From a virus (taxonomy: Duplodnaviria; Caudoviricetes): a DNA stretch of 64,000 nt. Location: IMG/VR virus record IMGVR_UViG_3300009431_000002, positions 64,001 through 128,000 of that record, one strand, 5' to 3'. This document shows, in pieces, positions 15,479 through 58,420 of the stretch. The notes under the pieces are model-generated. The model saw nothing but the letters and a program-made list of their open reading frames with translations. It was not told where the DNA came from and ran no database searches. The position numbers and the translations under genes are program-made. How positions within the stretch are numbered: the stretch's first letter is position 1; each line of letters starts with the position of its first letter.

Positions 15479-15687
15479 GCCTCGGCTGCCCCGGGGTAGA
15501 GGTGATCGAGGAGCTCGGGATGCAGCCGCAGGAGGTTGACGAGCGCCGGGGCGAAGGTCGCTGCCGCCAGGCGCGCCGCCAGGTCCTCGGCGAAGCCCTC
15601 GGGGCAGTCGTCGATGGTCTCCTGCAGCGTACGCTCCAGCAGTGGCGACACTGTGTCGGCGAACGCCGTGTGCAGGGGGTCGGTCAT
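15475..15687 (-). CDS. small hypothetical protein
   Basis: Coupled ATGA overlaps. Confidence 0.65.
   Translation of the reverse strand: MTDPLHTAFADTVSPLLERTLQETIDDCPEGFAEDLAARLAAATFAPALVNLLRLHPELLDHLYPGAAEA
15646..15658. repeat. CGACAC-W-GTGTCG palindrome (intragenic)
   Basis: CGACACTGTGTCG read directly. Confidence 0.7.
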
Positions 15688-16022
15688 CGTAGTCCGAACG
15701 CATCCGGGTGCAGGGCGAACCCGTTGACGTACTGGCCGGTCGAGTCCTCGAGGGTCAGGTAGAGGATCACGTCCTCCACGTTGAAGCCCACCTGGATGTC
15801 GCCGTTGATCACACGCTCCAGGTAGGACGTGACGGCCTCTGCGAGGGCCTTGGGCTCTGCGATGTGGCCCTCGTCCGTGAGCTTGAAGGCCGGCAGCACG
15901 TCTCGCTCGAGCAACCGCCGCACATGGAGTGAACGAACCTCACCAGCGGGCATGCGCTGGTCAACAGCGCCGCCGTCGATGGCAACTACCTTCCTGGGCG
16001 CAGGCTCAGGACGTGTCCGCAT
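15684..16022 (-). CDS. hypothetical protein
   Basis: GGAGGTG RBS; coupled. Confidence 0.65.
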   Translation of the reverse strand: MRTRPEPAPRKVVAIDGGAVDQRMPAGEVRSLHVRRLLERDVLPAFKLTDEGHIAEPKALAEAVTSYLERVINGDIQVGFNVEDVILYLTLEDSTGQYVNGFALHPDAFGLR

Positions 16023-16025
16023 GAG

Positions 16026-17021
16026 CTACACCTCCACTTCGGGGGTTTCTGGAACACCCACCGCTTCATCATCCCGCCGCACTGAGGGCATCGGCGCGTC
16101 ACCGGCGCGCCTTTCCGGCATCACCCCCGTGGGAGCGGGCGCTTCGTCCGTCGTTTCTTGCTTCGCACTGGCTCTCCTTGCGTTGCGGGCGGCCAACCTG
16201 TCGCTGAACGATGTCGGCAGCCTCGTCGGCGCCACCGCAGGGCCTGCGGGACGCCTCGGGGTCACTGTAGCAGGGTTCTGGACGTCCACGTCGGCCAAAC
16301 GAGCCCGTTCAGCCCTCTGTAGGCGTGCCCGACGGGCCCTGTCGGCCGTCGTGAGGCCGCGGAAGGCACTCCCACGGCCGTAGATGGCCCCCAAGGTGTC
16401 CACAGGGACGCCTTTGAAGCCTCGACCGAGCATCTCGGCGACCAGACGCTGGTCCTCACCACGTCCAGGGGTCCACCAGATGCCCGACTTGGCCCCCACG
16501 ACGCCTGCGCGGTGCATCAACTCGTCCGGGATGACCGTCCCGAGCTGCCAGGGGATGCCCGGACCGAACTTGGGCTCGGCCACGAGCCGCTCGTGGACCG
16601 AGTTCTCCCAGTCCGGGCCCTGGTTGCGCACGAACATGGTCCTGGACCAGCAGAAGTCGATGTCTGGGCGGGCGTCCATCACCTTCACCCGGTGCTCGAG
16701 GGCCCAGGGGGTCATCACGTCGTCGTCATCGAGGTAGGCGATGTACTTGCCCTTGGCGATCTTGACGCCCTCGTTGCGCTGCAGGCCCCCTGAGATGCCC
16801 AGGGCCACTGGGAGCCGCAGAACACGCAGCCTGGGGTCGTACTTGCGCAGGATCTCGAGGATGTCGGCCGTGTGGTCGGTCGTGGCGTCGTCGACGACAA
16901 TCACCTCGATGTCCTGCAGCGTCTGGCCGAGGCACGAGAGCACGGCGCCCGCCATGATGCGGTCGCGTGACTCGCCCGGCGGGCCTCCAGTGGGGATGAT
17001 GACGCTGGCTACGACGTTCAA
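16026..17021 (-). CDS. glycosyltransferase family 2 (GT-A)
   Basis: SVIIPT...EVIVVDDATTD...QRNEGVKIAKGKYIAYLDDDD; TTG start overlaps the upstream stop. Confidence 0.9.
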   Translation of the reverse strand: MNVVASVIIPTGGPPGESRDRIMAGAVLSCLGQTLQDIEVIVVDDATTDHTADILEILRKYDPRLRVLRLPVALGISGGLQRNEGVKIAKGKYIAYLDDDDVMTPWALEHRVKVMDARPDIDFCWSRTMFVRNQGPDWENSVHERLVAEPKFGPGIPWQLGTVIPDELMHRAGVVGAKSGIWWTPGRGEDQRLVAEMLGRGFKGVPVDTLGAIYGRGSAFRGLTTADRARRARLQRAERARLADVDVQNPATVTPRRPAGPAVAPTRLPTSFSDRLAARNARRASAKQETTDEAPAPTGVMPERRAGDAPMPSVRRDDEAVGVPETPEVEV

Positions 17022-17653
17022 CGAGCTCTCCTGGTGCGCGCCGGCTGCCGGCGGCCGCGCTGGGGTGGGCCAGCTTGGCCGGCCCGGCGGAAGACCAGGA
17101 GGTTGTCGCAGAAGTAGTGCACCACGCCCTTGGAGCGCCAGTCGCGGACCCACCGCTGCATCACGGTGGTCTGCAGCTGGAACCCTCGACGCTCGAAGTG
17201 CCCGATCCAGTGGTCCGCGGGCATGAGATTGACGTGGTGGTGGCCGGGCTGTCCAGGAGGGGCGGCCGAGAAGACCAGCCAGTCCTTGGCGTGCCGCGCG
17301 ATGGTGTGGCAGGCGATGTCCGCCGTGTGGGCGGGCAGGTGCTCCAAGACCTCCATGCAGATGACCACGTCGACCTGCAGCCGGAGGTCCAGAGCCCTGG
17401 TGAGGTCGTGGATGTGGACCGGAGTGCCGGGATCCGCGAAGTCGAGGGCATGCGACGAGCCGTCGACGCCTGCGGCATCGCACCTGCGCTTGCGCAAGGC
17501 GTTGATGACACCGCAGGGGCCGCAGCCGATGTCCAGGGCGACCTTCGGCTTGATGTGCCGGGCGATGGTGTCGGCGATGACCACGGAGGAGTGCCGCTCC
17601 GTGGCGGCCACGGCCTCCATCCACTCCTTCGTGTACAGGTCGTTGAGGCTCAT
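17018..17653 (-). CDS. class I SAM-dependent methyltransferase
   Basis: ALDIGCGPCG motif I; GVDGS; DVVICMEVLEHL; HINL-like HHVNL. Confidence 0.85.
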   Translation of the reverse strand: MSLNDLYTKEWMEAVAATERHSSVVIADTIARHIKPKVALDIGCGPCGVINALRKRRCDAAGVDGSSHALDFADPGTPVHIHDLTRALDLRLQVDVVICMEVLEHLPAHTADIACHTIARHAKDWLVFSAAPPGQPGHHHVNLMPADHWIGHFERRGFQLQTTVMQRWVRDWRSKGVVHYFCDNLLVFRRAGQAGPPQRGRRQPARTRRAR

Positions 17654-18252
17654 GCCTTCCTCGTCGGTGCGGGTGGGCAGCGCAGCCGCGGCTTCACCGG
17701 CGCGGGCTGGATCGGTGGCGGCGACGGCGGCCCGTCCCACCAAGTCCTGGTGTAGTCGACCTCCGGCGTGTGGATCCAGACGTTGGGCACGGGCTGGTCC
17801 ACCTCGTGGTCGAAGTGGGCGTGGACTGCGTCCCTCACGTCCGGCCAGTGGTAGTCGTGGCCGGCGATCACACGCGTCTTGGGCGACCAGTCTCGGATGT
17901 CCTGGTCCACAGCGGCGTTGGAGTGGTCCCCGTCGATGAAGACCATGTCGGCGAGCACAGGCACGTGCTTCACGGCCTCGTGGGAGGTCATCTTCAACAT
18001 CACGACGGGCACCTCGAACGCCGCAGCCAGCTGCTGGAAGGTGCGGTAAGCCCACGCGTCCTCCCAGGGGTCGATGGCGTACACGCACTCCAGGCACGGG
18101 GCGTCGAGGACGTAGCTGAGGCTGAGACCGGCGTGGACGCCGATCTCGACGAGCGTGCGGACCTGGTGCTCCAGGATCGTCCGGCGGTACCACTCCCCTT
18201 GCTGGTCGTCGAACCAGCCGGAGGTCTGTACGCCTCGGACGGTCCGGCTCAG
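17650..18252 (-). CDS. class I SAM-dependent methyltransferase (Methyltransf_24-like)
   Basis: LVEIGVHAGLS...YAIDPW...DMVFIDGDHS...IAGHDY; start uncertain (CTG overlapping the upstream stop). Confidence 0.8.
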   Translation of the reverse strand: MSRTVRGVQTSGWFDDQQGEWYRRTILEHQVRTLVEIGVHAGLSLSYVLDAPCLECVYAIDPWEDAWAYRTFQQLAAAFEVPVVMLKMTSHEAVKHVPVLADMVFIDGDHSNAAVDQDIRDWSPKTRVIAGHDYHWPDVRDAVHAHFDHEVDQPVPNVWIHTPEVDYTRTWWDGPPSPPPIQPAPVKPRLRCPPAPTRKA

Positions 18253-22526: not shown

Positions 22527-23173
22527 GTCCAGATCTCCTGCACCCAGCGGCACTCCTTGGGCTTGGGTCCACGGACGCCCGTGTGGTCCTTGTACATCAG
22601 CCGCCAGGGGTGAACGGGGTCATGGCCAAGCAGCAGTCCATGCCCGAGCTCGTGGGCGAGGACGCAGACGCTGTCGAACTTGGACAGGTCGTCAGGGATG
22701 AAGATGCGGCCGGCGATGACCTTGCGGCTGAGGTTCCAGAACAGCTCGCAGTCGCCGAGCTCCTCCCCCTTGCCCTGCGGCGACGTGGATGTGTCGCCGT
22801 GGACGCCGAACCCGCCGACGGTGCTGGCGCCGAACTGGGTCTTGCCGTCGAGCGGCTCGAAGTCCCGGCACCCCACCATCAAGTCCTTGCTGCCCAGGTA
22901 GTCGAAGTCCACCAGCATGAAGGCGGGGCCGATGCCGGCGCGCTTCTTGAGCCGGTGGTTCCAGATCTCCGTGGCGCGGCGCAGCGCGTCCTGGACGTGG
23001 TCCGGTGTGTCGGGCCACCAGCCCACGCGCAGGGGCAGCGGGTGCTCTGGAAGCAGGACGGGCTGGGCCATCTGGGCCTTGCGCAGCTTGCGCGGGCGCC
23101 CAACCAACTCCTCGGCCATGTCCGGGTCCAGCGGGACCCGCAGGCGAATCTTCTCAGCGGTCAGCGGCATCAC
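22523..23173 (-). CDS. metzincin (matrixin/M10-like) zinc metalloprotease
   Basis: VLAHELGHGLLLGH (HExxHxxxxxH variant) followed by the Met-turn RLMY. Confidence 0.8.
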   Translation of the reverse strand: MMPLTAEKIRLRVPLDPDMAEELVGRPRKLRKAQMAQPVLLPEHPLPLRVGWWPDTPDHVQDALRRATEIWNHRLKKRAGIGPAFMLVDFDYLGSKDLMVGCRDFEPLDGKTQFGASTVGGFGVHGDTSTSPQGKGEELGDCELFWNLSRKVIAGRIFIPDDLSKFDSVCVLAHELGHGLLLGHDPVHPWRLMYKDHTGVRGPKPKECRWVQEIWT

Positions 23174-23528
23174 TTCCCCCAGCGGCCTTGAGCCTACGAT
23201 CTCGTTCCACCAGTGCCAAGACGATCTCCTCCTCGCCCATGCCCCGGGCCACCATCTGTCGGATGGCCTCGTCCTCGGGCAGGGCGTCGAGGACGGCCGT
23301 GGTCGGTAGGGCGATGGGCTTGCCGTCGATGGTCACCCGCCACGGCTCGACGAGCTGAACGGCCCCCTCGTCGCCGACGAGCGTGAACGTGCAGTGCCCG
23401 TACTCCAGCAGCTGCATGACGAGCAGGGCGCCGAGCTCCCACCGACAGGCCTCCGAGGTCATCGTCTTTCGGTCGATGGGGACCTCTTCCGAGGCCGTCT
23501 TGGCGCGCTGCTTTGACTTGACTCGCAT
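23154..23528 (-). CDS. hypothetical protein, first gene of the leftward operon
   Basis: GC3-rich; ATG 23528 (alternative GTG 23534). Confidence 0.7.
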   Translation of the reverse strand: MRVKSKQRAKTASEEVPIDRKTMTSEACRWELGALLVMQLLEYGHCTFTLVGDEGAVQLVEPWRVTIDGKPIALPTTAVLDALPEDEAIRQMVARGMGEEEIVLALVERDRRLKAAGGSDAADR

Positions 23529-23632: not shown

Positions 23633-23657
23633 GGTCGACGACACTGTGTCGTCGACC
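23633..23657. repeat. perfect 25-bp palindrome GGTCGACGACAC-T-GTGTCGTCGACC (operator-like)
   Basis: Read directly; intergenic, between divergent promoters. Confidence 0.85.
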
Positions 23658-23745: not shown

Positions 23746-24696
23746 GTGAATCAGATCCCCACCATGCGGATGAGCATCGAGGACTCCATCGTCCTCAATG
23801 AGCCGCCGTACGTGGACGCGACCGGCCTGGCCGCGTTCCTCGCAGACCACCTGAAGTTCGTCCCGACCGTGCTGTACGGCCCCAAGGGCATCGGCAAGAC
23901 GCTGTGCCTCGAGTGGCTGGCGCACACGCTCAACCTCGCCAACCTGCAGGTCTCGTGCACCGAGGGGACCAAGGAGAAGCACCTCTTCGGTGCCATGGCC
24001 CCGAGCGACACTCCCGACCAGTACTGGTTCGTCCTCGGAGCCCTGGCCGCGGCCACCGACATGGCCAACGAGATCGCCAAGACCAAGGAGTGCGACGGCG
24101 TGATGCTGCGACTCGGCGAGGTCAACGCCCTGACGCCCCAGATGCAGAAGTCGCTCAACGCCTTCACGGACTGGCAGCAGGCCGTTCACCTCCCGCAGAT
24201 CGGGCGGGCGCTCCAGCTCGCCGAGGAGGCCAGGGTCTGGGTCGTCGCCGACATGAATCCCAGCGCCCACGGCGGCGTCTTCGACCTCAACGAGGACCTC
24301 AAGTCCAGGTTCCAGGAGGTGTGGCTCTCCTACCCGCACCCCACGCAGGAGCGCGTCATCCTCAACACGGTCGTGCCCGGCATCGACAGCGACGTCATCA
24401 CCAACATGCTCGACCTCGCCACCCAGACGCGGCAGGGCTCACTGTCCTACGCGCTGTCGACCCGCGACCTCGTCGCCTGCCTCCAGAACGCCTATGGCCG
24501 CGACGACAACAAGCCCATGGGCCTGGACAAGGCGCTCAAGCTCCTGTCCTACCGCTACACCGAGGGCGAGGACCGCGACGCCTTCCACGCGCGGACCAAG
24601 GCCAAGACCGACATCGACCTGGCCGGCATCGCGTTGATGACCCCGCCCAACCTCTCGTCGCCGGCGACGCCCGGCCGCGCCCGGGCATCGATCTGA
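23746..24696 (+). CDS. MoxR-family AAA+ ATPase (CbbQ/NirQ/NorQ/CobS-like)
   Basis: YGPKGIGKT; LRLGEVN (degenerate Walker B); ADMNPSAHGGVFDLNEDLKSRF; LSTRDL. Confidence 0.85.
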   Translation: MNQIPTMRMSIEDSIVLNEPPYVDATGLAAFLADHLKFVPTVLYGPKGIGKTLCLEWLAHTLNLANLQVSCTEGTKEKHLFGAMAPSDTPDQYWFVLGALAAATDMANEIAKTKECDGVMLRLGEVNALTPQMQKSLNAFTDWQQAVHLPQIGRALQLAEEARVWVVADMNPSAHGGVFDLNEDLKSRFQEVWLSYPHPTQERVILNTVVPGIDSDVITNMLDLATQTRQGSLSYALSTRDLVACLQNAYGRDDNKPMGLDKALKLLSYRYTEGEDRDAFHARTKAKTDIDLAGIALMTPPNLSSPATPGRARASI

Positions 24697-33255: not shown

Positions 33256-34656
33256 CTATTCGCCGAGGATGAAGCGGACGATGTCGTTCTGCTGGAAGAG
33301 GCCCAAGCTGTCGTACAGCGAGAGCGCGAAGTACCCCGCGACGCCAGCCTGGTCCACGCGGTAGTCGAGGCCGTTGACCCCGATGAGGTTGCCCGCCCGG
33401 TCGGCGCAGATGCCGTACAGGTTGGGCGCGGCGGTGAACGGGAAGCAGCCCACCGGGACCCAGTTGGCCAGGGGGCCACCGTCGGCCCACCGCGCGACGT
33501 CCTGCGCCGAGACGGTGTACTCCTGGGTGAAGGCGCCCTGGAACGCGTCCGCGGCGCCGCCCTGCAGGTCCTGGTCGGTCATGTTGGTGACGCCGGTGGC
33601 GTCGAGCACCAGGTTGCCGGCGAGGCCCTCGGCGTCCTTGGGCACGATGCAGACGATGGCCTGGCCGGCCGCGCTGTTGAACCCGATGACGGCGTCCGCC
33701 AGGACGCTGTCGGTGTTGATCGCCGTGATGAGGGCGTTGGCCACGGCCTGGGCGTTGGCCAGGTTGCGCTGGACCTCGAAGGGCGCCGCCGGTGCGCCGT
33801 CCACGAAGGTGAACGTCTCGAGGGTGGTGCCGTCGGTGATGGTGAACGTCTCGGCCGCGACGGGAAGACCCGTCAGGTAGCCGTAGCCCGCGCCGCCGCG
33901 CTCGATGCGCGACTGCCCCGAGACCGAGGACAGCGACAGGTGGAAGAACCGCTCGATGCCGTCGGCGATGACCATGATCTCGACGACGTCGCCGTCGCTG
34001 TAGCCGCTGAGGTCCAGGAGCGCGTCGATCTGGTGGGCGCTCCAGTCCATCAGCTGGGTGACGATGTTGGTGGGCTCGAGGGCGAACTCGCCCTGGCCCG
34101 CACCGCCGCTGAGCTCCACCTCGGCGGCGTCCGTGGGCGCCACGGCGCCGGTGGCGCCTGCCTCGAGCGTGCAGTTGACGAGGTCCGAGGTGTTGAGGAG
34201 CACGTCGGCCGCCGCGAGGACCACGTCGGAGGCGTCGTGGCCGGCGCCGACGGAGTCGTAGCCGACGGTGACGTCGTCGCCCACCGCCGTGATGAACGGA
34301 CCCGCGGCGTGCGCCACGTCGTCGTCCATGGTGATGGTGATGTCGTTGCCGTCGGCCCCCGGCCGGATGGCGTACCAGTCGATGCCGGCGTTGGTGCCGG
34401 TGTCGCTCGTGCCCTCCGCCTGCAGGCTGTCCTGCAGGAAGTTCTCGCCGGTGATGCTGACCTCCTGGTCGGCCAGCGGGGCGATCCCGCTCATCGGCAC
34501 CTGGGTGATGTGGTGGATGGAACCATCGTCGACGGGCGAGAGCGCAATCAGCGCCAGGTTCTCTCGCACGGCGTCGAGGTGCCGGTGATGCCGGTGCTGG
34601 CGGTTCGCGGGGTTCCACGACGTCAGCAGCGGGATACGGGAGCGGTCACGAGCCAT
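33256..34656 (-). CDS. tail/virion decoration protein
   Basis: GADGNDITIT and ETFTITDGTT...ALITAIN modules typical of sheath-associated domains. Confidence 0.6.
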   Translation of the reverse strand: MARDRSRIPLLTSWNPANRQHRHHRHLDAVRENLALIALSPVDDGSIHHITQVPMSGIAPLADQEVSITGENFLQDSLQAEGTSDTGTNAGIDWYAIRPGADGNDITITMDDDVAHAAGPFITAVGDDVTVGYDSVGAGHDASDVVLAAADVLLNTSDLVNCTLEAGATGAVAPTDAAEVELSGGAGQGEFALEPTNIVTQLMDWSAHQIDALLDLSGYSDGDVVEIMVIADGIERFFHLSLSSVSGQSRIERGGAGYGYLTGLPVAAETFTITDGTTLETFTFVDGAPAAPFEVQRNLANAQAVANALITAINTDSVLADAVIGFNSAAGQAIVCIVPKDAEGLAGNLVLDATGVTNMTDQDLQGGAADAFQGAFTQEYTVSAQDVARWADGGPLANWVPVGCFPFTAAPNLYGICADRAGNLIGVNGLDYRVDQAGVAGYFALSLYDSLGLFQQNDIVRFILGE

Positions 34657-34822
34657 TGTTCGTTCCCTCGGTCGAGGCGGCGTAGCGAGCTACGCTGCCG
34701 GTTTGCGGCCCCCAGCCGGGACGAGCCTTGTGGGTCAAGTCCTGTGGGAACGCCCGATGCGCCCACCGTTGGCCGGGCCAGTTGCGATTACCTTAGAACA
34801 CCCCGACACGTAGTGTCGAGGG

Positions 34823-39114: not shown

Positions 39115-39966
39115 CTACACGCCGTCGCGCACGGTCCTCATGTAGCGGACCTCGAGCGTGTCGTCCGCGTCGGGCTGCACGTCCGTGGTCACCAGCATCT
39201 TCACCATCGGGTCGTGGATCGGGATCGAGAGACGCTTGTGGTAGTACCGCACGCCGGCGGCCGGGGCCGCGACGGGGAACTGGTACTCCACGATGGGCGT
39301 GGCGACGGGCAACACGCCGGCGGCCACGAGCCCCACGTCGAGGCCCACCTCGTCGTACAGCCGACCGTGGCCGCGCTGGCCCTCACCCATGCCGTACCGC
39401 AGCCGCAGCTGCACCTGCGTCACCGGGCTGGCGTTGGTGATGGCGAACTGCAACCAGATCTCCAGGTAGTCGTTGGCGTTCATCTCGACGTTGCCGCCGG
39501 AGTTCCCCTCCGAGTCCCAGAACTGGTGGAAGTTCTCCAGCTGCGAGTTCCACACGCCGTTGAGCAGCAGGCCCGTCGGTGCGTCCGAGGCGACGGTCGG
39601 CACCAAGCCCCAGTCCGCCGCGTTGGCCAGCAGGACGACGGTGTCGCCGACAGCCGTGGCCGTGCCGGGGTTGCCGAGCGCCGCCATCGGGACGTTGAGC
39701 ACGGCCGCGAGGTTCGTGGCCGACTCCTCCGGGGTGCCGCCGGCGTCCCAGTCCGGCCCACCACCGCCGGCCTCGGTGTGGACGGTGGCGCCGCCACCCA
39801 GGGCCGTGAGGTCCAGGGTGACGACTGCGCCGGTGAGGTTGTCGTTGTCGATGACGGCGACGAACGCCTGGGGTGCCATCTGGAACGAGGCCTCGGCCCG
39901 CAGCTCGACGGGGAAGAGGTCCATGTCAGCGTCGCCGCGCACGGCGGACGCATTTGCCTGGCTCAT
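39115..39966 (-). CDS. tail structural protein sharing a module with the sheath
   Basis: LDLTALGGGATVHTEAGGGGPDW...ATNLAAVLN resembles the sheath inserts. Confidence 0.6.
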   Translation of the reverse strand: MSQANASAVRGDADMDLFPVELRAEASFQMAPQAFVAVIDNDNLTGAVVTLDLTALGGGATVHTEAGGGGPDWDAGGTPEESATNLAAVLNVPMAALGNPGTATAVGDTVVLLANAADWGLVPTVASDAPTGLLLNGVWNSQLENFHQFWDSEGNSGGNVEMNANDYLEIWLQFAITNASPVTQVQLRLRYGMGEGQRGHGRLYDEVGLDVGLVAAGVLPVATPIVEYQFPVAAPAAGVRYYHKRLSIPIHDPMVKMLVTTDVQPDADDTLEVRYMRTVRDGV

Positions 39967-39978: not shown

Positions 39979-40001
39979 GTCGACGACACAGTGTCGCCGA
40001 C
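39979..40001. repeat. CGACAC-W-GTGTCG palindrome (intergenic, beside an RBS)
   Basis: GTCGACGACAC-A-GTGTCGCCGAC, one mismatch. Confidence 0.75.
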
Positions 40002-40009: not shown

Positions 40010-43000
40010 TCACACGATCAGGCGCACCCGGATGTAGTTGCAGGGGTACGGCAGATCGAGCGTGACGTCGATCAGCACGGTGTCCGGGTTGTCCTCGTCC
40101 TGGGTGATGGAGTTGAGCGTGTACCCGATCAGGGACCCGCTGGCCTTCAGGAACTCCAGGAGGCCATCCACAACCGCGGTGAGGGTGTCCAGGAACGCCG
40201 TGGTGATGTTGAAGATGCCCAGGAAGTTACGCAGGGCCGCCCGCAGGAACTTCGACACGAAGTCGAGGTTCTTGGTGATGGACAGCTCGCGCGTCTCCAG
40301 GGTCGTGACGTCGGTCGAGTTCTGGTGGCGGCAGATCAGCGGGGCGCCGTCGTACTCCTGCACCAGGATGTACACACCGCCGCCGGAGATCTCGTTGAGC
40401 AGCGACTCCCGGAAGGTGTCGTTCGAGCCGTAGACGTTGCTGAACCCCGCGATGGGGTAGCGGCTGAAGCCCTGCTGGGGCAGCTGCTGGCTGACCATGC
40501 CGGCGACGGCCGCGCAGGCGTAGTACGCCGGCAGCAGCGTGGTGCCGTCGTCGAGCTCGGCCTCCACCTCGTCGGGGAAGATCATGTACAGGCGGCGGTC
40601 GGCGTAGGTGCTCGCCACGCCGGCCACGGTCTCGGCGATGCCGTCGAGGTCGGGCTGACCCGCCACCTCCAGCGCCGCGCCGCGGATCTTGACGGCCCAC
40701 GTCACGCTGGACACGGTCTCGTCGAAGTCCTCGGTGTCGTAGAACAGGTCGTCGTTCTCGCCCGTGACGAAGGTGGTGTTGATGGCGCACAGCGCCCCGT
40801 TCACCAGGTTGAGGTTGTAGCGGCGCAGCTCGCTGCCCACCGTCGCCTCGAGGTACACGCCGTCGGAGACCGCCAGCGCCGCCGGGTTGAGTCCCTGGGC
40901 CACCAAGCCGTTGGCCGGGCTGGAGTCGCAGATGAACTGGTTCACCGCGCCCGTGGACCGGCCGTCGGTGCCGCTGGCCACCGTCGTCGGCGTCGCCTCG
41001 GTCGGCACCTCGGGGTTGAAGAACAGGATCCGCTCGCCGCGCTGCGCGGCCGCGCTCATCCAGTCCACGTGGGTCTGGAAGAGCTGGTGCACCGTGTCCT
41101 GGTGCGTCAGCGGGGCGATGGCGTAGACCTCCTCGCTCTCGAGGAACTCGGCGGCCCGGGTGAAGGCGCTCAGCGTACCCTCCGGGTGCGCCGAGGAGAC
41201 CTCGTCGACACCGAGCCCCGTCACGCTCACGCCCGAGGCGTTGAGCTTGGCGAAGAACAGGCCCAGGCCGAGCGGGTTGTCGGTGGTCAGCGGCGACAGG
41301 AGCTCCTCGAGCTCGGTGGTGTCGTCGATGACCAGCAGCCCCGGGTTGGAGGCCGCGGCCGCGCTCACGTCCAGACGCAGGCCGTGGTAGCCGATGTAGA
41401 TGCCAGAGGACCCGAGGTACTCGTTGTCGTGCGGGATGCCGGTCATCGTGTCCCGCAGGATCTGCGCACCGATGACGACGCCGCCCGAGGAGTCCAGGTA
41501 GAAGTCCGGGTTGGGCCGGCCGGAGCCGTCCGCCTCGTGGTCGGGGTCGACCATGCCCACGGCCGTGGCCGCGGCCAGCCGGCTGGTGGTGTCGGCCAGG
41601 ACCTCGACTCTGGACGCCTGGCCCAGCAGGAGGCTGGTCAGCACGAGCTGGCGGGTGTTGGTGCCGCCGGCGGACGCCACGATGTTGTCGTTGACCTCCT
41701 CGTTGATCCTGTCGATCAGGTCGTCGAGGGAGTCGCCGATGGGAGTCACGGACCACTCGTGCGGGTTGTAGTCCAGCTGGAAGACGAACTCCTCGCCGGT
41801 GAGGTTGTCCGCGCCGGTGTCCAGATCGTTGTCGCTGGTGCCGCCGGTGAGCTCGTGCTGCAGGAGGTCGCCGGCGCCGGCCACGTCGATGTTGGCGGCG
41901 TCGTTGCCCTGCATCCAGCACTGGTTGCCCAGGAAGCTGTTGACGATGACGTAGACCGTCACCGTGGCCGTGGCCACGCCAGCGGCGTCGGTGTTGTGGG
42001 CGTAGACCTCACCGGCCTGCGCGCCCGCGTTGATGGCCGCGGCGAGGGAGGTGGCACCGGCGATACCCACGCCGGCCCACGCGCCGCCCTCGATGTACTC
42101 CACCTGGGAGCCACCGAGGGCCGTGGTGTCCACGATGAGCGAGTCGGGTCCGGCGGCCGCGCCGCCGATGATCACGTGCTGCTCGGCCGTCGCCGTGCCC
42201 CCCGTGAAGAAGGCCGCGACCGCGCCACCCTGGATCGTCATGTTGGTGAAGTCGTCCGACACGATGGTGCAGAGGTTGCCCTCCCAGCCCGCCAGGTCGA
42301 TGGTCACGGTCACCGTGTCCACGCCGTCGTCGATGGCCGAGATGCCGGCCAGCGTGTCGAGGAAGGCCGCCAGGGCTGCGACGGTGGCCGGAATGTCGCC
42401 CACCACCCTGGACCAGTCCGCGCCGCCGCCCTCCGTGGCCGTCAGTGCGCCACCACCGGCCACCGTGGTGTCGATGGTGATGATGTGCCCCGCCCCGGGG
42501 TCGCCTGTCAGAACGATGTCGGCCGTCGCGCTCACCTCGGCGCCGCCGAAGTTGAAGGCCGCGTCGGTGGTGACCTCGTCCACGTCGACCTCGGTGCCGT
42601 TGCCACCCTCGAGGACCGTGATGGTCAGCCCGCGGGATCCCGCCACGTCGCTGCCCGAGAACTCCACCATCGGGCAGTTGGGCATGCCGTTGGAGGGCAG
42701 GGCCGTGCCGTTGCCGCCGGCCGTGAGCTGCGCGGCGAGCAGGGCCCAGGTGCCTCCGGCGACGTCCGCAGCGTCCAGGGCGTAGCTGAGGTTGAGTCCC
42801 GTGCCGTTGCGGTCGGTGACCGTGAAGGCCAGGACCTCGCCACCGACCAACGGGAAGGCGTAGGGCGCGGGGGTCTCCCCAGCGTCCGGACCGCCGGTGA
42901 CCGAGGCCTGCGTGGAGAACTCGGCGTCCACGCCCTCCCCGCTGCCTCCGCTCAGGGTGTCCATGCCCACGTCGGCGATGGCGTTGTTGGAGCCGGTGGC

Positions 43001-44530
43001 CGCGATCTCCACGCCCTGGTCGGCGCCGGTCGCGGACGTCTGCAGCGTGAGGTACTGCTCGTTGGCCGTGGCGTCGGTGTAGGCGCTCGCCACGATGTCG
43101 GTGGCCGCGGCGTTGATGTCGTCGGCGATGGCCTGCATGCTGGCGTAGTCGCCGGCGAGGGTGATGGTCTGCTCCGCGCCGCGGACGCCGTCGACCGTCG
43201 CCCGCAGGTACAGGCTCTTGCCGGTCAGGCCCATCGGGAAGTTGGCGTTCGCCACCGGCGACCCAACGAGGTACCCGAACAGCGCTGCGTTGGCCTCCAC
43301 GGTGCCCGTGAGCGCGGCAGCGACCGGCGTCGGGACGACATCGCCCTCGACCAGGCCCTGCGCACCGAACCACGCGTACCGCGGAGCCAGCGGGGTGGCG
43401 TCGAACAGGTTGCCCACCTCGTAGGTGGTGTACACGCGCGAGGTGATGTCGCCGTCGTCGTCGTACACCGAGTTGACGATGTCGATGGTGCCCACCCGGA
43501 AGCGGGAGGTCTGGACCTCGGTGACCTCGGCCGTGGTGCCCACCTGGGCGCCGTCGGCCATGAACACGTCGCCGGGTGCCGTGGTCGTCGCGGCCTGCAG
43601 CGGCACGTCGGGGCTCACCCCCGCGAAGGTGCGGGCCGGGGCCCGGGAGCCGAGGTAGGCGTCGGCGTCATCCACCAGCTGCGCGGAGGCGGACCACGCG
43701 GGCCCACCGACGTCCTGCGTGCCGACGCCGTCCTCGTAGTACTCCCCGCGGAAGTACTCGATCCACGGCGTGGTGGTGTCGGTGTCGCCGTCGTCCTGGC
43801 CGCGGAAGCCGGCGGCCTCCACCCGGTACTCGGTGGCCTTGCCGCCGATGGACGTCCAGAGGATGTCGGACGCCGTGCTGCCGGCGCGGATGGTGATGGA
43901 CGACCCGGCGCCGTAGGTGGTCGAGATGATCTGGAGGTAGAAGTCGCCCGGGACGAGCGGGTCCTCCCAGGTCTCGGCCACGGTCTCGCCCACGGCGTCG
44001 TTGATGGCGTCGGCGACGTCGTCCGAGGCCATCACGCCCGACAGGCTCACGGTCACGTCGTTGTCGGTGCTGGTGCGCACGACGTTGTCGACGGCCAGCA
44101 CCAGGAGCATGCCCGTGCCGAAGTTGTAGCCCGCACCCTCGAGCTCGGAGGCGCGGAAGCCGGCCCGGTACGCCCAGTTGGCGAAGGCCAGGAAGGAGGA
44201 GCCGTAGTCGCCGTAGACCGAGTCGCCGTTGTCCAGCTCGGTGGTCTCACCGCCGTGGCTGATGTGCGCCTCGATGGTGCCCTCCTGGACGTCCACCTCG
44301 TCGATGTTCCCGCGGGGCGACGGGAAGGAGGACTGGGCGATGTTCTGCTCGAACTGGTCGTACTCCCCGAAGTACGCGTCCTCGTCCAGCAGCTGGCTGG
44401 AGTCGTACACCTCGATGACCTCGAAGGCCGCCCCGACGACGTTGGTCCGGAGGGTGGGCACGAGGATGGTGGCGCTGGTCGACTCGAACTCCTGGATGAC
44501 CTGCACGCTGGGCTGCTCGAGAGCGGGCAT
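40010..44530 (-). CDS. contractile tail sheath protein, ~1,506 aa, with large inserted domains
   Basis: MPALEQPSVQVIQEFES N-terminus; C-terminal EFLESEEVYAIAPLT...ELSITKNLDFVSKFLR...PDTVLIDVTLDLPYPCNYIRVRL; ATG 44530 with GGAG RBS. Confidence 0.85.
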   Translation of the reverse strand: MPALEQPSVQVIQEFESTSATILVPTLRTNVVGAAFEVIEVYDSSQLLDEDAYFGEYDQFEQNIAQSSFPSPRGNIDEVDVQEGTIEAHISHGGETTELDNGDSVYGDYGSSFLAFANWAYRAGFRASELEGAGYNFGTGMLLVLAVDNVVRTSTDNDVTVSLSGVMASDDVADAINDAVGETVAETWEDPLVPGDFYLQIISTTYGAGSSITIRAGSTASDILWTSIGGKATEYRVEAAGFRGQDDGDTDTTTPWIEYFRGEYYEDGVGTQDVGGPAWSASAQLVDDADAYLGSRAPARTFAGVSPDVPLQAATTTAPGDVFMADGAQVGTTAEVTEVQTSRFRVGTIDIVNSVYDDDGDITSRVYTTYEVGNLFDATPLAPRYAWFGAQGLVEGDVVPTPVAAALTGTVEANAALFGYLVGSPVANANFPMGLTGKSLYLRATVDGVRGAEQTITLAGDYASMQAIADDINAAATDIVASAYTDATANEQYLTLQTSATGADQGVEIAATGSNNAIADVGMDTLSGGSGEGVDAEFSTQASVTGGPDAGETPAPYAFPLVGGEVLAFTVTDRNGTGLNLSYALDAADVAGGTWALLAAQLTAGGNGTALPSNGMPNCPMVEFSGSDVAGSRGLTITVLEGGNGTEVDVDEVTTDAAFNFGGAEVSATADIVLTGDPGAGHIITIDTTVAGGGALTATEGGGADWSRVVGDIPATVAALAAFLDTLAGISAIDDGVDTVTVTIDLAGWEGNLCTIVSDDFTNMTIQGGAVAAFFTGGTATAEQHVIIGGAAAGPDSLIVDTTALGGSQVEYIEGGAWAGVGIAGATSLAAAINAGAQAGEVYAHNTDAAGVATATVTVYVIVNSFLGNQCWMQGNDAANIDVAGAGDLLQHELTGGTSDNDLDTGADNLTGEEFVFQLDYNPHEWSVTPIGDSLDDLIDRINEEVNDNIVASAGGTNTRQLVLTSLLLGQASRVEVLADTTSRLAAATAVGMVDPDHEADGSGRPNPDFYLDSSGGVVIGAQILRDTMTGIPHDNEYLGSSGIYIGYHGLRLDVSAAAASNPGLLVIDDTTELEELLSPLTTDNPLGLGLFFAKLNASGVSVTGLGVDEVSSAHPEGTLSAFTRAAEFLESEEVYAIAPLTHQDTVHQLFQTHVDWMSAAAQRGERILFFNPEVPTEATPTTVASGTDGRSTGAVNQFICDSSPANGLVAQGLNPAALAVSDGVYLEATVGSELRRYNLNLVNGALCAINTTFVTGENDDLFYDTEDFDETVSSVTWAVKIRGAALEVAGQPDLDGIAETVAGVASTYADRRLYMIFPDEVEAELDDGTTLLPAYYACAAVAGMVSQQLPQQGFSRYPIAGFSNVYGSNDTFRESLLNEISGGGVYILVQEYDGAPLICRHQNSTDVTTLETRELSITKNLDFVSKFLRAALRNFLGIFNITTAFLDTLTAVVDGLLEFLKASGSLIGYTLNSITQDEDNPDTVLIDVTLDLPYPCNYIRVRLIV

Positions 44531-51121: not shown

Positions 51122-51844
51122 TCAGTCCTCCATCGACACGATCTTGGCGTCCAGGGCCTTCATGGCGCCGGTGCGGGTCTTGCCCGACTGCTCGGCGTCA
51201 CGCAGGGCCAGGACGTGGTCGGCGTCCTCGCAGGTCTCGAGGAAGGCCTCGAGGTCCCCGATGTTGCCGTCGAGGACCGACAGGTCGTAGGTGACCTCGA
51301 CCTCCTCGGGCTTCTCCTCGAGGTCTTCGGGCTCGTCGGTCTCCGCGGGCGCGCCCGGCCCCGTCTCCTCCCCCAGATCCCCCTCCTCTTCCCCGTCGGC
51401 CTGGGAATCCTCGCCGACATCGGCGTCCTTCTCCTCGGGTGGGTCCTCGAGGTCGTCCAGGCCGACAGGCTCGTCCGCGTCCTCGTCGACCTCCTTCTCG
51501 GCCGGCTCCTCGGGCTCCGGCGGCACGAGCGCCTCCATGTGCAGCGCCGTGAACCGGGCACCGTCGCCGGCCTGCAGGGCCTCGATGGCCTCCTGCCGCT
51601 TGGCCGGGTCCTTGAAGTCGTCGAACAGTTCGGTCAGGTCCGGGCCGGGCTCCGGCTCCGACGACACTGTGTCGTCGACCTCCGGCACGACCTCCTGGAT
51701 GAAGCCGTTCTTGGTCAGGTGTTGGATGTGTCGCCGATCCTTCTTCGCGTCCGCGTCCGAGACGGGGAGCGGTACGGATCCCAGGCACTTGCCTGCGATG
51801 GCGATGTTGGGCGGAGCGCCCGCGAGCTTGCGGTAGTACTTCAT
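51122..51844 (-). CDS. acidic head-associated protein with C-terminal helical domain
   Basis: E/D/P-rich linker; LDGNIGDLEAFL...AEQSGKTRTGAMKALD. Confidence 0.65.
   Translation of the reverse strand: MKYYRKLAGAPPNIAIAGKCLGSVPLPVSDADAKKDRRHIQHLTKNGFIQEVVPEVDDTVSSEPEPGPDLTELFDDFKDPAKRQEAIEALQAGDGARFTALHMEALVPPEPEEPAEKEVDEDADEPVGLDDLEDPPEEKDADVGEDSQADGEEEGDLGEETGPGAPAETDEPEDLEEKPEEVEVTYDLSVLDGNIGDLEAFLETCEDADHVLALRDAEQSGKTRTGAMKALDAKIVSMED
51659..51677. repeat. CGACAC-W-GTGTCG palindrome (intragenic)
   Basis: CGACGACAC-T-GTGTCGTCG, perfect 19 bp. Confidence 0.75.
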
Positions 51845-55767: not shown

Positions 55768-55770
55768 GGT

Positions 55771-56046: not shown

Positions 56047-56055
56047 CGCGCTCCT

Positions 56056-56715
56056 CTACTGGAGCAGGTGGCCGTAGCCGTTGGCCTGCAACAGCTGCGC
56101 GGCGGCCTGGTCGATGCGGTCCTGCTGCGAGGGCTGCTCCGGCGCGGCCGCGGTCTTGGCGGTCTCGCAGTCGCCCTTGCAGTCCGCCTTCAGGCACCGG
56201 CACAGCTGGTTGGCGGCGACCTTCTCGGCCAGGAACTCGTTGGCGCGGGCGGTGGCCAGCTCGACGAGCAGCGGGTCGGCCTGCGGCTGCTCGGGCTGGG
56301 CCTGCGCGGCCGCGGCGGTCTTCTGGATGACGTCCAGCTCGTTGACGAAGGCGTGGGCCATCTGCCGGCCGAGCAGATCCGCCTCGGCCATCTCGGCCGC
56401 GGCCTTCTTCTCCTCGTCGTTCATCGGCGGGCCCTCGTCCTTCTTCTCGTCCTTCTTCTCCTCGTCCTTCTCCTCCTTCTTGGGCGGGAAGGGGGGAGCG
56501 GGCGGCGCGTCGGCCGGGGCCTCCTCGGCCGCTACCTTCTTGAGGTAGTGCTGGAAGGTGGCCTGGACCTGGGCGTCGGACATCTGCGAGATGTCGTAGC
56601 CGTCGGCCGAGGCCAGCTTGTCCAGCGCGTCGTAGACGGCCTGCTGGTCGACCTGCTCCTGGTTGCGGGCGTGGCCGTAGGCCGCTGCGAGGACCGGGTT
56701 CATCTGGTCGGGCAT
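56056..56715 (-). CDS. scaffold/internal head protein
   Basis: DKLAS, KKVAA, QKTAA, EKVAA, AKTAA; AFVNEL. Confidence 0.7.
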   Translation of the reverse strand: MPDQMNPVLAAAYGHARNQEQVDQQAVYDALDKLASADGYDISQMSDAQVQATFQHYLKKVAAEEAPADAPPAPPFPPKKEEKDEEKKDEKKDEGPPMNDEEKKAAAEMAEADLLGRQMAHAFVNELDVIQKTAAAAQAQPEQPQADPLLVELATARANEFLAEKVAANQLCRCLKADCKGDCETAKTAAAPEQPSQQDRIDQAAAQLLQANGYGHLLQ

Positions 56716-56728
56716 TTCCTCTTGCTCC

Positions 56729-58420
56729 TCATGCTGGCTGCGCTGAGGCTAGCTTCACCGCCAGCTGTGGGTTGCTCTGAACGATTCGTTCTCCAAGCTC
56801 CGGGCCCAGCCTCTTTCCCGCATCCCAGTGTGCACGGACGAGGTACACGACGGGGCCTGACGAGAACAATCCTGCCAGCGGCCCACCCTCAATGGCAACA
56901 GGCTTTCGCCCGAAAAGCTCAGCGAGGGGGTCCAACTGGTCGGTTGGTAGCCCAAAGTGTGGTTGCGCAGTTTCCCGTGCCAGCAGGGAGAGCAGAGCTC
57001 TCCTGTACCCGTTGTAGGCCCGAGAGATCTCACTCAACAGCGGGTTGTCCGCGTAGTTCGGGGCCGAGGGCTTGGGCACTTCCATGCGGATGATGACGGT
57101 CAGCCTCTTCTTCAGGGGGCCGCCGAACATCGAACGGCCGCCGACCAGTGGGGCCAGCAGCTCCTGCAGGTCTGGCGCGTGGCCAGAGAGGGACGGGCAC
57201 TCGCCCATGTCCATGCACGGCTTGAATACGCTGCCGGCGGAGTCAAGCTCGTCGGCCAGCGGCTTGTTGCCGCAGCGGACCAAGGTGATGCGCTGGAACT
57301 CACGGGGCGTCAGCACGATCCCCATGCGGCCAGCAGTCCCCAGGGCGGTCCCGAGGTCCGACGACACTGTGTCGTTTGGCGCCGCCATCCGGTCGAGGAC
57401 CTTGGAGGGCAAGGGCTTCTCGGTCTTCTCCAACAGGGGGACGGCGTGTCCGGCGGCCTGGCTGGGCGGCAGCTCCTTGATGATGTCGGCGAGCTTCTGC
57501 TGACTGGCCGTCTTCGGGCTGTCCGCCACCATCTCCTGGAGCGCCTCCGCGTACGCGCCCGCGGTCTTCTCGTACCCGAGATCCGCAGCGCGCTCTGCTG
57601 ACGGCGCGGAGAGGGTGCCGGGCTTGACCACGACGAACGTCCTCTTGCCTGACGCCAGCAGTGCCATCACCTTGGCAGTCCTGTCCGCTCCGATCAAGAC
57701 GTACGAGATGTCGAAGAACCGCGGGTGCGGGTTCCACACGAAGATCTGCTGGCCGTCCGGCAGGATCATGTTGGGCCGGTACCGCGGGTCCTTGCGGCTC
57801 ATGTGCTCGCAGTAGTCAGCCCGAGTCTTGGACTTGTGGCCGCAGATCGAGCACACGTCGTACTTGACCCGGCAGCCCATGCTCACCGGCAAGTACTCGC
57901 CCCGCTCCAGGCGCTCGATGATGTCGTAGCCGCCGGCCTGGCGGCACAGGCCGTGGTCCAGCTCCTGGACCAGCTCGACCCGCTTCATCAGGTCGTTCCA
58001 CACCGCCAGCACGACGTCGCCGTACTTCGGGTGGTTGTGCGGCGGGTAGGGCTTGTTCTTGTGGTGCCGGAACGCGTTGGCCAGGTAGAAGGTCGTGTAC
58101 CCGTAGGGCGCGTGCGCGGCGAGACGCCGGCGGCCCTCGATGTCCCAGGGCGGGACGTTGCGCCAGCCCGGCGGCTCCAGCTTCAGGGAGTCGATGCTGA
58201 ACCCGTCGGCGTTGATGTTGGGGCCCCAGATCTCTGTGGCTCCCAGCGCGTTGACCAGTGCGTAGGTCTTGTCGGGCTTCGGCTCCAGCTTGGCGATGAA
58301 CTGCTGCACCTCGTCGTGCAGGGGCGCCGCGGTCTTCACGAGACCGGGCTCACCTGGAGTGACGAGCTGGGAGTAGACGCCCCGCTCGTCCTCCCCCTGG
58401 TAGTGCAGCAGCTTGATCAT
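56729..58420 (-). CDS. prohead maturation protease (HK97/herpes-fold, Zn insertion) with C-terminal extension
   Basis: FRHHKNK...GDVV; LPVSMGCRVKYDVCSICG...YCEH; NPHPRFFDISYVLIGAD. Confidence 0.7.
   Translation of the reverse strand: MIKLLHYQGEDERGVYSQLVTPGEPGLVKTAAPLHDEVQQFIAKLEPKPDKTYALVNALGATEIWGPNINADGFSIDSLKLEPPGWRNVPPWDIEGRRRLAAHAPYGYTTFYLANAFRHHKNKPYPPHNHPKYGDVVLAVWNDLMKRVELVQELDHGLCRQAGGYDIIERLERGEYLPVSMGCRVKYDVCSICGHKSKTRADYCEHMSRKDPRYRPNMILPDGQQIFVWNPHPRFFDISYVLIGADRTAKVMALLASGKRTFVVVKPGTLSAPSAERAADLGYEKTAGAYAEALQEMVADSPKTASQQKLADIIKELPPSQAAGHAVPLLEKTEKPLPSKVLDRMAAPNDTVSSDLGTALGTAGRMGIVLTPREFQRITLVRCGNKPLADELDSAGSVFKPCMDMGECPSLSGHAPDLQELLAPLVGGRSMFGGPLKKRLTVIIRMEVPKPSAPNYADNPLLSEISRAYNGYRRALLSLLARETAQPHFGLPTDQLDPLAELFGRKPVAIEGGPLAGLFSSGPVVYLVRAHWDAGKRLGPELGERIVQSNPQLAVKLASAQPA
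57361..57375. repeat. CGACAC-W-GTGTCG palindrome (intragenic)
   Basis: ACGACAC-T-GTGTCGT, perfect 15 bp. Confidence 0.7.

What the first reader, a model, noticed from the sequence alone, without database searches (positions are those of the whole stretch)
15646..57375. Dispersed palindrome CGACAC-W-GTGTCG, five copies, three inside coding regions
Seen at 15646-15658, 23633-23657 (perfect 25 bp), 39979-40001, 51659-51677 and 57361-57375, with a spacer variant CGACAC-GTA-GTGTCG at 34804-34818. The in-gene copies force D-T-V-S with a rare ACA codon in an otherwise C/G-ending codon context. A rough i.i.d. estimate at 68% GC gives about 0.002 expected copies of the 13-mer in 64 kb. It does not match the canonical parS, matS or SlmA sites as I recall them. 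Inference: a genome-wide protein-binding site acting as a parS-like centromere/compaction site, a stoperator-type repressor site or a packaging signal. Candidate binders in the window are the two ParB-like proteins, HTH 60123, RHH 29994 and the tandem-HTH protein.
Basis: partly seen in the sequence, partly recalled or inferred. Interest (0 to 1): 0.7.

Follow-up and report, generated by a model that had tools for sequence, protein, structure and literature searches.

The report
Evenly spaced ParB-type sites, giant phage
A 202-kb uncultured phage carries 15 exact, evenly spread copies of a 13-base palindrome, five of them in this window, written even into its protein-coding genes. They are most likely docking sites for the phage's own ParB-like DNA clamp, a whole-genome layout I found in no paper I could search for a phage of this kind.

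Summary
CGACACWGTGTCG occurs five times in the window at the stated places (about 0.01 expected) and 15 times in the 201,921-bp phage genome. There is no excess of near-matches, and the spacing is far more regular than random (P about 2e-4). All eight D-T-V-S peptides in the proteome are spelled with this motif and a rare ACW codon, so the DNA word is what selection keeps.

Two sister lineages carry their own versions, CGACAGWCTGTCG and GGACAGNCTGTCC. Both halves changed together, at bases that would lie in a hairpin loop. That points to a two-fold symmetric protein reading duplex DNA.

The best candidate is the gene at 63658+. It has a ParB N-domain, an HTH and a predicted dimerising tail. 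It sits beside the terminase in all three lineages, is nearly the most diverged shared gene, and differs at ParB's DNA-contact positions in step with the sites. It keeps the CTP-binding Gly and Arg residues but lacks both catalytic glutamates, and the genome has no match to the ParA-type family searched.

No binding has been shown, and the purpose is unknown. The closest analogues are KorB-OB and Noc-NBS. The scan reached the same reading on the neighbouring window of this genome (e1-5362268). The 3-bp-spacer variant is probably chance, and the "second ParB" at 6113 is not supported.

The parts
15646..15658 (.). Site copy 1, CGACACTGTGTCG, inside a weakly supported 70-aa ORF (15475-15687, minus strand), read as D-T-V-S
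23633..23657 (.). Site copy 2. The 13-mer core is at 23639-23651 inside a perfect 25-bp palindrome. It lies in the divergent gap between gene 23154-23528(-) and the MoxR-like AAA_5 ATPase gene 23746-24696(+). Sister phage G001 has its own variant in the same gap.
39984..39996 (.). Site copy 3, CGACACAGTGTCG, in the 43-bp gap between two minus-strand genes (39115-39966 and 40010-44530)
51662..51674 (.). Site copy 4, inside the 240-aa gene 51122-51844(-), read as D-D-T-V-S-S
57362..57374 (.). Site copy 5, inside the 563-aa structural-module gene 56729-58420(-), read as N-D-T-V-S-S. The G001 and G003 homologues carry their variant at a different codon of the same gene.
63658..64000 (+). 5' part of the candidate reader P0002 (338 aa). 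The gene runs 674 bases past the window end, to G000:128674. It has a ParB N-domain with GLRR in place of GERR, an HTH, a long Lys/Arg-rich disordered linker, and a C-terminal dimerisation domain. It sits next to the large terminase gene (61817-63586, minus strand).

Best explanation
The 13-bp palindromes are specific binding or loading sites for a homodimer of the phage's own ParB-family protein (P0002, gene at 63658+). One HTH reads each 6-bp half-site across a central A/T.

The protein keeps the CTP-binding Gly and Arg residues but lacks both catalytic glutamates. It therefore probably closes into a long-lived clamp that leaves the site and spreads along flanking DNA. Sites every 13 kb or so would then let the protein cover the whole 202-kb chromosome.

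Shown in silico: the site statistics, the symmetric site changes between lineages, the ParB fold, the predicted dimer tail, and the absence of a match to the ParA-type family PF13614. Candidate purposes are genome organisation or compaction, marking phage DNA for the adjacent packaging genes, shielding, or KorB-like long-range repression.
For: 1. The DNA word itself is selected.
- 15 exact copies and no excess of near-copies.
- All 8 DTVS peptides are spelled with the motif using a rare ACW codon, and synonymous shuffles leave about 0.2 genic copies.

2. Spacing is regular.
- G000: CV 0.40, P=2e-4.
- Sister composite: 11 sites in 104 kb, CV 0.42, P=0.005.

3. The site changed in concert in sister lineages.
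- G001-G003 carry CGACAGWCTGTCG (8, 8 and 6 copies per fragment) and G006 carries GGACAGNCTGTCC (3 copies in 49 kb).
- In the convergent gap next to the 665-aa gene, all three lineages have a site, each in its own version.
- The C/G swap falls in the 3-nt loop of any hairpin. Base pairing does not require the symmetry; a symmetric dimer on duplex DNA does.

4. P0002 is a ParB-family protein.
- PHROG ParB-like, E=4e-16.
- phmmer match to Spo0J 1vz0, E=1e-4, across the N-domain and HTH.
- AF2 model with mean pLDDT 84, whose top Foldseek matches are Noc, ParB, KorB and Spo0J.
- C-terminal residues 262-338 as two copies score 0.80 against a best control of 0.00. That mark was reached by 20 of 30 proteins solved as pairs of one chain and by 1 of 23 solved as single chains. 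The runs agree in at least 87% of contacts and pLDDT is at least 70. ParB tail dimers are solved, so this pass may reflect likeness.

5. Linkage between protein and sites.
- A P0002 homologue sits beside TerL in all three array-bearing lineages.
- It is absent beside TerL, together with repeated palindromes, in about 30 TerL relatives at about 50% identity.
- It is the second most diverged of 41 shared genes, at 29-30% identity against 72-76% for TerL.

6. DNA-contact positions track the sites.
- At the positions defined for ParB/Noc (PMC7383237), G001 and G003 are identical and share the same site.
- G006 shares STRHV and IDAAYD with them and shares the inner 5 bp of the site.
- G000 differs (DVRTV, FSAACD), and its site differs at the inner base.

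7. Nucleotide motifs.
- G60, R62 and R63 are kept, while E78 is replaced by L and E111 by V (B. subtilis numbering).
- E78Q and E111Q in B. subtilis ParB bind CTP and close the clamp but do not hydrolyse, and they spread further (PMC8494293).
Against: - No binding data exist.
- The link between protein and sites rests on three lineages that form one clade, so it amounts to a single evolutionary origin. About 40 other genes share the same presence/absence pattern.
- At 30% identity, differences at contact positions are expected anyway.
- The complete relatives G004 and G005 carry a more canonical ParB homologue elsewhere but have no palindrome array. A ParB alone therefore does not predict an array.
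- Pfam's ParB_N model does not match P0002.
- CTP binding and sliding are inferred from a few residues.
- Only one ParA-type family (PF13614) was searched.
Confidence: 0.6

Rival explanations
1. The sites are read by a different phage-encoded DNA-binding protein and P0002 is unrelated to them. Candidates are the small-terminase-like HTH protein at 60123 (packaging signals), the tandem-HTH protein at 7227-8177, or one of the many unannotated genes.
For: About 40 genes share the phyletic pattern 'present in G001-3, absent in G004/5'. The TerS-like protein has an N-terminal HTH and is itself diverged at 39-44% identity. Most of the phage proteome has no annotation.
Against: The TerS HTH segment is much the same in all lineages, including G004 and G005, which lack the array. 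Packaging signals are normally single, not 15 evenly spread. None of the other candidates I scanned shows a dimeric HTH architecture like ParB.
Confidence: 0.17
2. The sites are read by a host protein, such as a host nucleoid, division or partition factor, that the phage exploits. Lineage variants would then reflect different hosts.
For: The host is unknown, so this cannot be excluded. Closely related phages may infect different hosts.
Against: A phage-encoded, fast-evolving dimeric HTH protein gives a simpler account of the concerted change.
Confidence: 0.08
3. The palindromes act as nucleic-acid structures, either RNA or DNA hairpins or cruciforms, serving for example as terminators, processing sites or priming sites, and not as duplex protein sites.
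For: Each site can form a 5-11-bp stem, and the 25-bp copy folds at -19.5 kcal/mol with z=-3.5. Five of 15 sites are intergenic (P=0.009).
Against: - Stability varies widely and at 15646 the palindrome is not even the best fold. It is the sequence that is invariant, not the stability.
- The lineage change lies in the hairpin loop yet is symmetric.
- Ten of 15 copies lie inside predicted genes. In sisters they lie inside TerL and the RNA polymerase gene.
- A separate canonical hairpin with a T-run follows the site at G000:150188.
- A 13-bp insert would shift the reading frame, so the copies arose in place rather than by spread of a mobile element.
Confidence: 0.06

Closest known systems
KorB and its OB operators on IncP plasmid RK2
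   Same: A ParB-family protein with N-domain, HTH and dimer tail reads a short palindromic operator whose identical copies are scattered round the whole replicon. My recollection is 12 copies of a 13-bp core. KorB is a CTP-dependent sliding clamp that acts at a distance from its sites (PMC11790492). The KorB structure 8qa9 is among the best fold matches to P0002 (TM by target 0.64).
   Different: KorB also partitions the plasmid with the ParA-type IncC and works with the clamp-lockers KorA and TrbA. No match to the ParA-type family searched was found here, and no locking partner is known. The replicon is a 202-kb phage that carries its own RNA polymerase gene. Most sites lie inside genes, the spacing is regular, and both catalytic glutamates are missing. 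The Pfam KorB domain does not match P0002.
Noc and its NBS sites in Bacillus subtilis
   Same: A ParB paralogue without a ParA partner binds palindromic sites dispersed over most of a chromosome and spreads from them in a CTP-dependent way (PMC8429893). Its specificity diverged from parS through changes at a few HTH contact residues (PMC7383237). Noc 7nfu is the top Foldseek match.
   Different: Noc has an N-terminal membrane-targeting helix, whereas P0002 starts directly at the N-domain. Noc serves cell-division control in a cell, not a virus. NBS sites are not reported to be evenly spaced (my knowledge).
Canonical ParABS centromeres (chromosomal, and P1 or N15 plasmid prophages)
   Same: Same protein family and the same logic of a palindromic site read by a dimer.
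   Different: Centromere sites cluster near the origin or near parB and need ParA. Here the sites are spread evenly, no match to the ParA-type family searched was found, no canonical parS lies within 3 mismatches, and the protein has no ParA-binding N-terminal peptide.
Stoperators of cluster A mycobacteriophages
   Same: Many near-identical 13-14-bp sites are dispersed through a phage genome, inside genes as well as between them (my knowledge).
   Different: Stoperators are asymmetric, oriented with transcription, and bound by the immunity repressor of a temperate phage. These sites are perfect palindromes with no orientation bias: on the gene strand the central base is A six times and T six times (my count).
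5mYOX-associated phage ParB activators
   Same: An orphan phage ParB-fold protein with N-domain and dimer tail whose function did not depend on the conserved NTP-binding or hydrolysis residues (PMC13229309).
   Different: Those proteins lack a DNA-binding domain and work with a neighbouring thymine dioxygenase. P0002 has an HTH, and the genome has no Tet_JBP match.

Membership tests
ParB/Noc/KorB family (ParB-CTPase fold + HTH) | ParB N-terminal (sulfiredoxin-like) domain | tested here: met
   PHROG ParB-like E=4e-16. phmmer match to Spo0J 1vz0, E=1e-4. Foldseek probability 1.0 to Noc, ParB, KorB and Spo0J. Pfam ParB_N itself gives no hit, so the protein is divergent.
ParB/Noc/KorB family (ParB-CTPase fold + HTH) | HTH DNA-binding domain directly after the N-domain | tested here: met
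   Sequence and fold alignments run through residues of about 110-190 onto the ParB, Noc and KorB DNA-binding domains. There is also a weak HTH_38 hit at 122-149.
ParB/Noc/KorB family (ParB-CTPase fold + HTH) | C-terminal constitutive dimerisation domain | tested here: met
   Prediction only. Residues 262-338 as two copies score 0.80 against a best control of 0.00. The mark was reached by 20 of 30 known homodimers and 1 of 23 monomers.
ParB/Noc/KorB family (ParB-CTPase fold + HTH) | CTP-binding GxRRxxA motif and N/R of box III | tested here: met
   G60, R62, R63, A66, N106 and R109 are conserved. Nucleotide binding itself is not testable here.
ParB/Noc/KorB family (ParB-CTPase fold + HTH) | Catalytic glutamates for CTP hydrolysis (B. 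subtilis E78 and E111) | tested here: not met
   GLRR and VNADR in P0002, GMRR and LDVDR in G001, GIRR and ANVDR in G006. The role of these residues is taken from PMC8494293.
ParB/Noc/KorB family (ParB-CTPase fold + HTH) | Specific binding of the protein to the palindrome | not testable with these tools
   Only indirect support exists: synteny, divergence, and covariation at contact positions across three lineages.
ParABS partition system | Cognate ParA ATPase | tested here: not met
   No PF13614 match in the complete genome, with controls positive. Other ParA-type models were not searched.
ParABS partition system | Centromere sites clustered near parB or the origin | tested here: not met
   The 15 sites are spread over the whole genome at 5.7-23.9 kb intervals.
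KorB-OB global regulon | Identical short palindromic operators dispersed round the replicon | tested here: met
KorB-OB global regulon | Clamp-locking partner (KorA or TrbA) and operators placed at promoters | not tested
   No partner was searched for. Five of 15 sites are intergenic, one of them in a conserved divergent gap. Promoters of this phage are unknown.
Noc-NBS | N-terminal amphipathic membrane-targeting helix | tested here: inconclusive
   P0002 begins directly with the N-domain strand. No dedicated helix prediction was run.
Cluster A stoperators | Asymmetric site oriented with transcription | tested here: not met
   The site is a perfect palindrome. On the gene strand the central base is A six times and T six times (my count).
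Intrinsic terminator or structural hairpin | Stable stem in every copy, placed at transcript ends | tested here: not met
   Fold stability is variable. Ten of 15 copies lie inside genes. A separate terminator-like hairpin lies next to one site.

The most novel reading that the evidence does not exclude
A phage that looks lytic loads a naturally hydrolysis-dead ParB clamp from evenly spaced sites so that the protein coats its entire 202-kb chromosome. This would be a phage-encoded 'chromatin' or self-mark that organises, shields or earmarks phage DNA, for example for the packaging motor encoded next door. Site and reader would be re-keyed together in each lineage.
Probability: 0.3. Interest if true: 0.85.

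Novelty: new variant of a known kind. Interest (0 to 1): 0.66.

Why it matters
ParB-type clamps are known from chromosome and plasmid segregation, nucleoid occlusion and plasmid gene silencing. Many phages that appear non-temperate carry orphan ParB genes whose role is unknown (bioRxiv 10.1101/2024.12.31.630880; PMC12704722).

This case offers a ready-made, testable system. It has a defined 13-bp site, 15 copies at regular spacing, a candidate reader with natural 'hydrolysis-dead' motifs, and two sister lineages with re-keyed sites for specificity-swap experiments. If confirmed, it would show whole-genome coating by a ParB clamp in a virus. It would also give three naturally orthogonal ParB/site pairs usable for DNA labelling.

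Tried and rejected
- Pfam ParB_N gave no hit, either against the genome or on P0002 alone. The family was established by PHROGs, phmmer and fold instead.
- A word-based homologue search with P0002 found only P0002 itself, and the locus search with it found no relatives. A megablast against cultured phages found nothing.
- The simple claim 'relatives without the array lack ParB' was rejected. A profile search found a more canonical ParB homologue next to the AAA_5 gene in G004 and G005, which have no array.
- The thymine-dioxygenase/ParB-activator idea was rejected because the genome has no Tet_JBP match.
- A classical partition system is not supported because the ParA-type family searched (PF13614) has no match.
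- No canonical parS lies within 3 mismatches in any of the five genomes checked.
- The exact G000 motif in IMG/VR occurs only as single copies in 51 unrelated contigs. In bacterial genomes there are only scattered singles.
- A search for a fourth lineage failed. The P0004 contig has no DNA held, the P0005 contig is only 1.2 kb, and further homologue searches found nothing new. The A2 alignment was too diverse for a locus scan.
- Clustered GGACAGNCTGTCC arrays in two unrelated high-GC viral contigs (L162, L166) look like iterons inside a replication-initiator gene beside a DnaC-like loader. I did not count them as evidence.
- Orthologous-codon conservation of in-gene sites is not found. Sites sit at different codons in the shared 563-aa gene, and sisters have sites in TerL and the RNA polymerase gene that G000 lacks. 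Number and spacing persist while the places turn over.
- Association with strand-switch points is not significant.


Full report
**What the window is.** The window is bases 64001-128000 of a single 201,921-bp IMG/VR phage record. The record is 67% G+C and CheckV rates it complete. In or beside the window the phage carries a structural and packaging module: a large terminase at 61817-63586(-) (GpA_ATPase) and a small-terminase-like HTH protein at 60123-60818. Gene positions come from my own codon-model caller, which gave 235 genes and 91% coding.

**Check of the observation.** CGACACWGTGTCG occurs exactly five times in the window, at the stated coordinates, against 0.01 expected from dinucleotide shuffles. 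The extended palindromes are as described, including a perfect 25-mer at 23633-23657. The variant with a 3-bp spacer at 34804 exists. From the half-site counts (102 and 115) I estimate about 0.4 such pairs by chance in the genome, so I do not count it.

The genome holds 15 copies. Every occurrence of the 9-base core lies inside a full 13-mer. Only four variants with 1-2 mismatches exist, no more than chance. The flanks show a weaker TCGA...TCGA symmetry, and the centre is A or T in all 15 copies.

**The DNA word, not a peptide, is selected.** Ten copies lie in predicted genes, and eight of these use the frame GAC-ACW-GTG-TCG. That is the only frame that avoids several rare codons. All eight D-T-V-S peptides in the proteome are spelled this way, although ACA+ACT make up 7.5% of threonine codons. 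DTVS itself occurs 8 times against 0.9 expected, and synonymous shuffling leaves about 0.2 genic copies. A 13-bp insertion would break a reading frame. The copies therefore arose in place by point mutation under selection, not by spread of a mobile element.

**Spacing.** Intervals run from 5.7 to 23.9 kb, with a coefficient of variation of 0.40 against about 0.91 for random placement (P=2e-4). Five of 15 sites are intergenic against 9% non-coding DNA (P=0.009). There is no significant link to strand-switch points.

**Relatives.** A search with the large terminase found three fragments at about 72% identity and two complete genomes at about 48%. The fragments are G001-G003, of which G001 and G002 overlap. 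The complete genomes are G004 and G005. None carries the G000 motif.

- G001-G003 carry CGACAGWCTGTCG, with 8, 8 and 6 copies per fragment. That makes 11 in the 104-kb G001/G002 composite, again regularly spaced (CV 0.42, P=0.005).
- A third lineage was found through the closest homologue of the ParB-like protein (G006; TerL 76% identical). It carries CGGACAGNCTGTCCG three times in 49 kb.
- G004, G005 and about 30 further terminase relatives at about 50% identity show no repeated palindrome.
- In all of IMG/VR the G000 form occurs only as single copies elsewhere.

Sites turn over. In the shared 563-aa gene they sit at different codons, and the sisters have sites inside TerL and the RNA polymerase gene. 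Some places persist. The divergent gap upstream of the AAA_5 ATPase gene holds a site in G000 and G001. The convergent gap beside the 665-aa gene holds a site in all three lineages, each in its own version.

**Protein site or nucleic-acid structure?** Between lineages both half-sites changed together. In any hairpin the changed bases (positions 6 and 8) lie in the 3-nt loop, so base pairing does not require the symmetry. A two-fold symmetric reader of duplex DNA does require it. Fold stability also varies from copy to copy, and at 15646 the palindrome is not the preferred fold. A separate canonical hairpin with a T-run follows the site at G000:150188. All copies in one genome are identical while related genomes differ. 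That calls for one trans-acting, sequence-specific reader per genome.

**The candidate reader.** The gene at 63658+ continues 674 bases beyond the window and encodes P0002, 338 aa.

- It matches PHROG 'ParB-like partition protein' families (E=4e-16).
- It matches T. thermophilus Spo0J across the N-domain and HTH (E=1e-4).
- 39 of 60 of its HMMER relatives carry ParB_N and HTH_ParB.
- An AF2 model (mean pLDDT 84) has Noc, ParB, KorB and Spo0J as its top structural matches.
- After a 70-residue Lys/Arg-rich disordered linker comes a helical tail. As two copies the tail scores 0.80 against a best control of 0.00. That mark was reached by 20 of 30 known homodimers and 1 of 23 monomers; the runs agree in at least 87% of contacts and pLDDT is at least 70. 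ParB tail dimers are solved structures, so this pass may reflect likeness.
- No match to the ParA-type family PF13614 and no Tet/JBP dioxygenase is encoded.

**Link between protein and sites.** A homologue sits directly beside TerL in all three array-bearing lineages. It is absent from that position in the array-less relatives. It is the second most diverged of 41 shared genes, at 29-30% identity while TerL is 72-76%.

I mapped the proteins onto the DNA-contact and specificity positions defined for Caulobacter ParB and Noc (170-184 and 201-204; PMC7383237), using the Spo0J alignment.

- G001 and G003 proteins are 77% identical overall. They are identical through position 179 of the first contact segment and throughout the second, and they share one site.
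- G006 shares S-T-R-H-V and I-D-A-A-Y-D with them, and its site differs only at the outermost base.
- G000 has D-V-R-T-V and F-S-A-A-C-D, and its site differs at the innermost base. In Noc that innermost base is read by residue 201.

This is coherent but weak. It rests on three lineages from one clade, and about 40 other genes share the same presence pattern. G004 and G005 have a more canonical ParB homologue elsewhere without any array.

**Likely mechanism.** P0002 keeps G60, R62, R63, N106 and R109. The equivalents G77 and R80 in B. subtilis are needed for CTP binding. P0002 has L and V in place of the two glutamates E78 and E111. E78Q and E111Q mutants of B. subtilis ParB bind CTP and close the clamp but do not hydrolyse, and they spread further from parS (PMC8494293). 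The two sister proteins lack both glutamates as well.

My best reading is a dimer that loads at each palindrome and then leaves as a long-lived clamp. Sites about 13 kb apart would then let the clamps cover the whole chromosome. A nucleotide-independent slider like ParT is also possible (PMC12260392).

What the coating does is open. The options are compaction or organisation, marking phage DNA for the packaging genes next door, shielding, or KorB-like long-range repression. One site lies in a conserved divergent gap, which would fit an operator role.

**Comparison and novelty.** The closest analogues are KorB with its dispersed identical palindromic operators on RK2 (PMC11790492) and Noc with its dispersed NBS sites (PMC8429893). 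The differences are these:
- the replicon is a large phage that looks lytic;
- no ParA-type or clamp-locking partner is known;
- most sites are written into coding sequence;
- the spacing is regular;
- the catalytic residues are lost;
- site and reader are re-keyed between sister lineages.

I found no description of such a layout in the searchable literature. The scan itself reached the same reading on the neighbouring window (e1-5362268). I re-derived it independently and add three things: the third lineage, the hairpin-loop argument, and the caveat about G004 and G005.

**Verdict.** The best explanation stands at about 0.6, and the finding is a new variant of a known kind.

Noticed in passing
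window 34804-34818: CGACAC-GTA-GTGTCG, the same half-sites with a 3-bp spacer, lies in the gap upstream of gene 33256-34656(-). I estimate about 0.4 such pairs by chance genome-wide, so it is probably not a functional site.
   Followed up: partly
It has no Pfam hit, no PDB hit and no match to the ParB profile, and no homologue in the five relatives.
   Followed up: partly
window 7227-8177 (+): A 316-aa ORF with two weak HTH matches (HTH_AsnC-type, HTH_23) and a PHROG 'transcriptional regulator, D5-like' hit. My gene caller left this stretch empty, so the gene is plausible but unconfirmed.
   Followed up: no
G000:150201-150232 (outside the window): A G+C-rich hairpin followed by TTTT lies directly after the palindrome in the convergent gap. 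It looks like a canonical intrinsic terminator, which suggests host-type termination is used here.
   Followed up: no
L006:3921-6932 (G001): The large terminase of the G001 lineage lies in a 1003-aa ORF, but only residues 94-586 of the G000 protein align. The P0004 contig has a 950-aa gene with Hint-domain hits nearby. Inteins or fusions in the packaging module are possible.
   Followed up: no
G004:80757-81524 and G005:176962-177750: The array-less relatives carry a more canonical ParB homologue (GSRR, ENIDR) next to the MoxR-like AAA_5 ATPase gene. In G000 the strongest palindrome (25 bp) sits just upstream of that ATPase gene, while the ParB gene lies beside the terminase.
   Followed up: partly
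L162:5850-6045 and L166:11880-12075: Two unrelated 70%-GC viral contigs carry tight clusters of CCGGACAGNCTGTCCGGA repeats. The repeats lie inside an HTH-bearing ORF, upstream of a DnaC/IstB-like gene and downstream of a ParB-N/DPPW-methyltransferase fusion. They look like origin iterons.
   Followed up: partly
L302:5200-5520: A 45%-GC Clostridiales MAG contig has about five tandem ~100-bp units, each containing GGGGGT(A/G)CGACACAGTGTCG(C/T)ACCCCC. This is an unrelated repeat family that shares the core.
   Followed up: no
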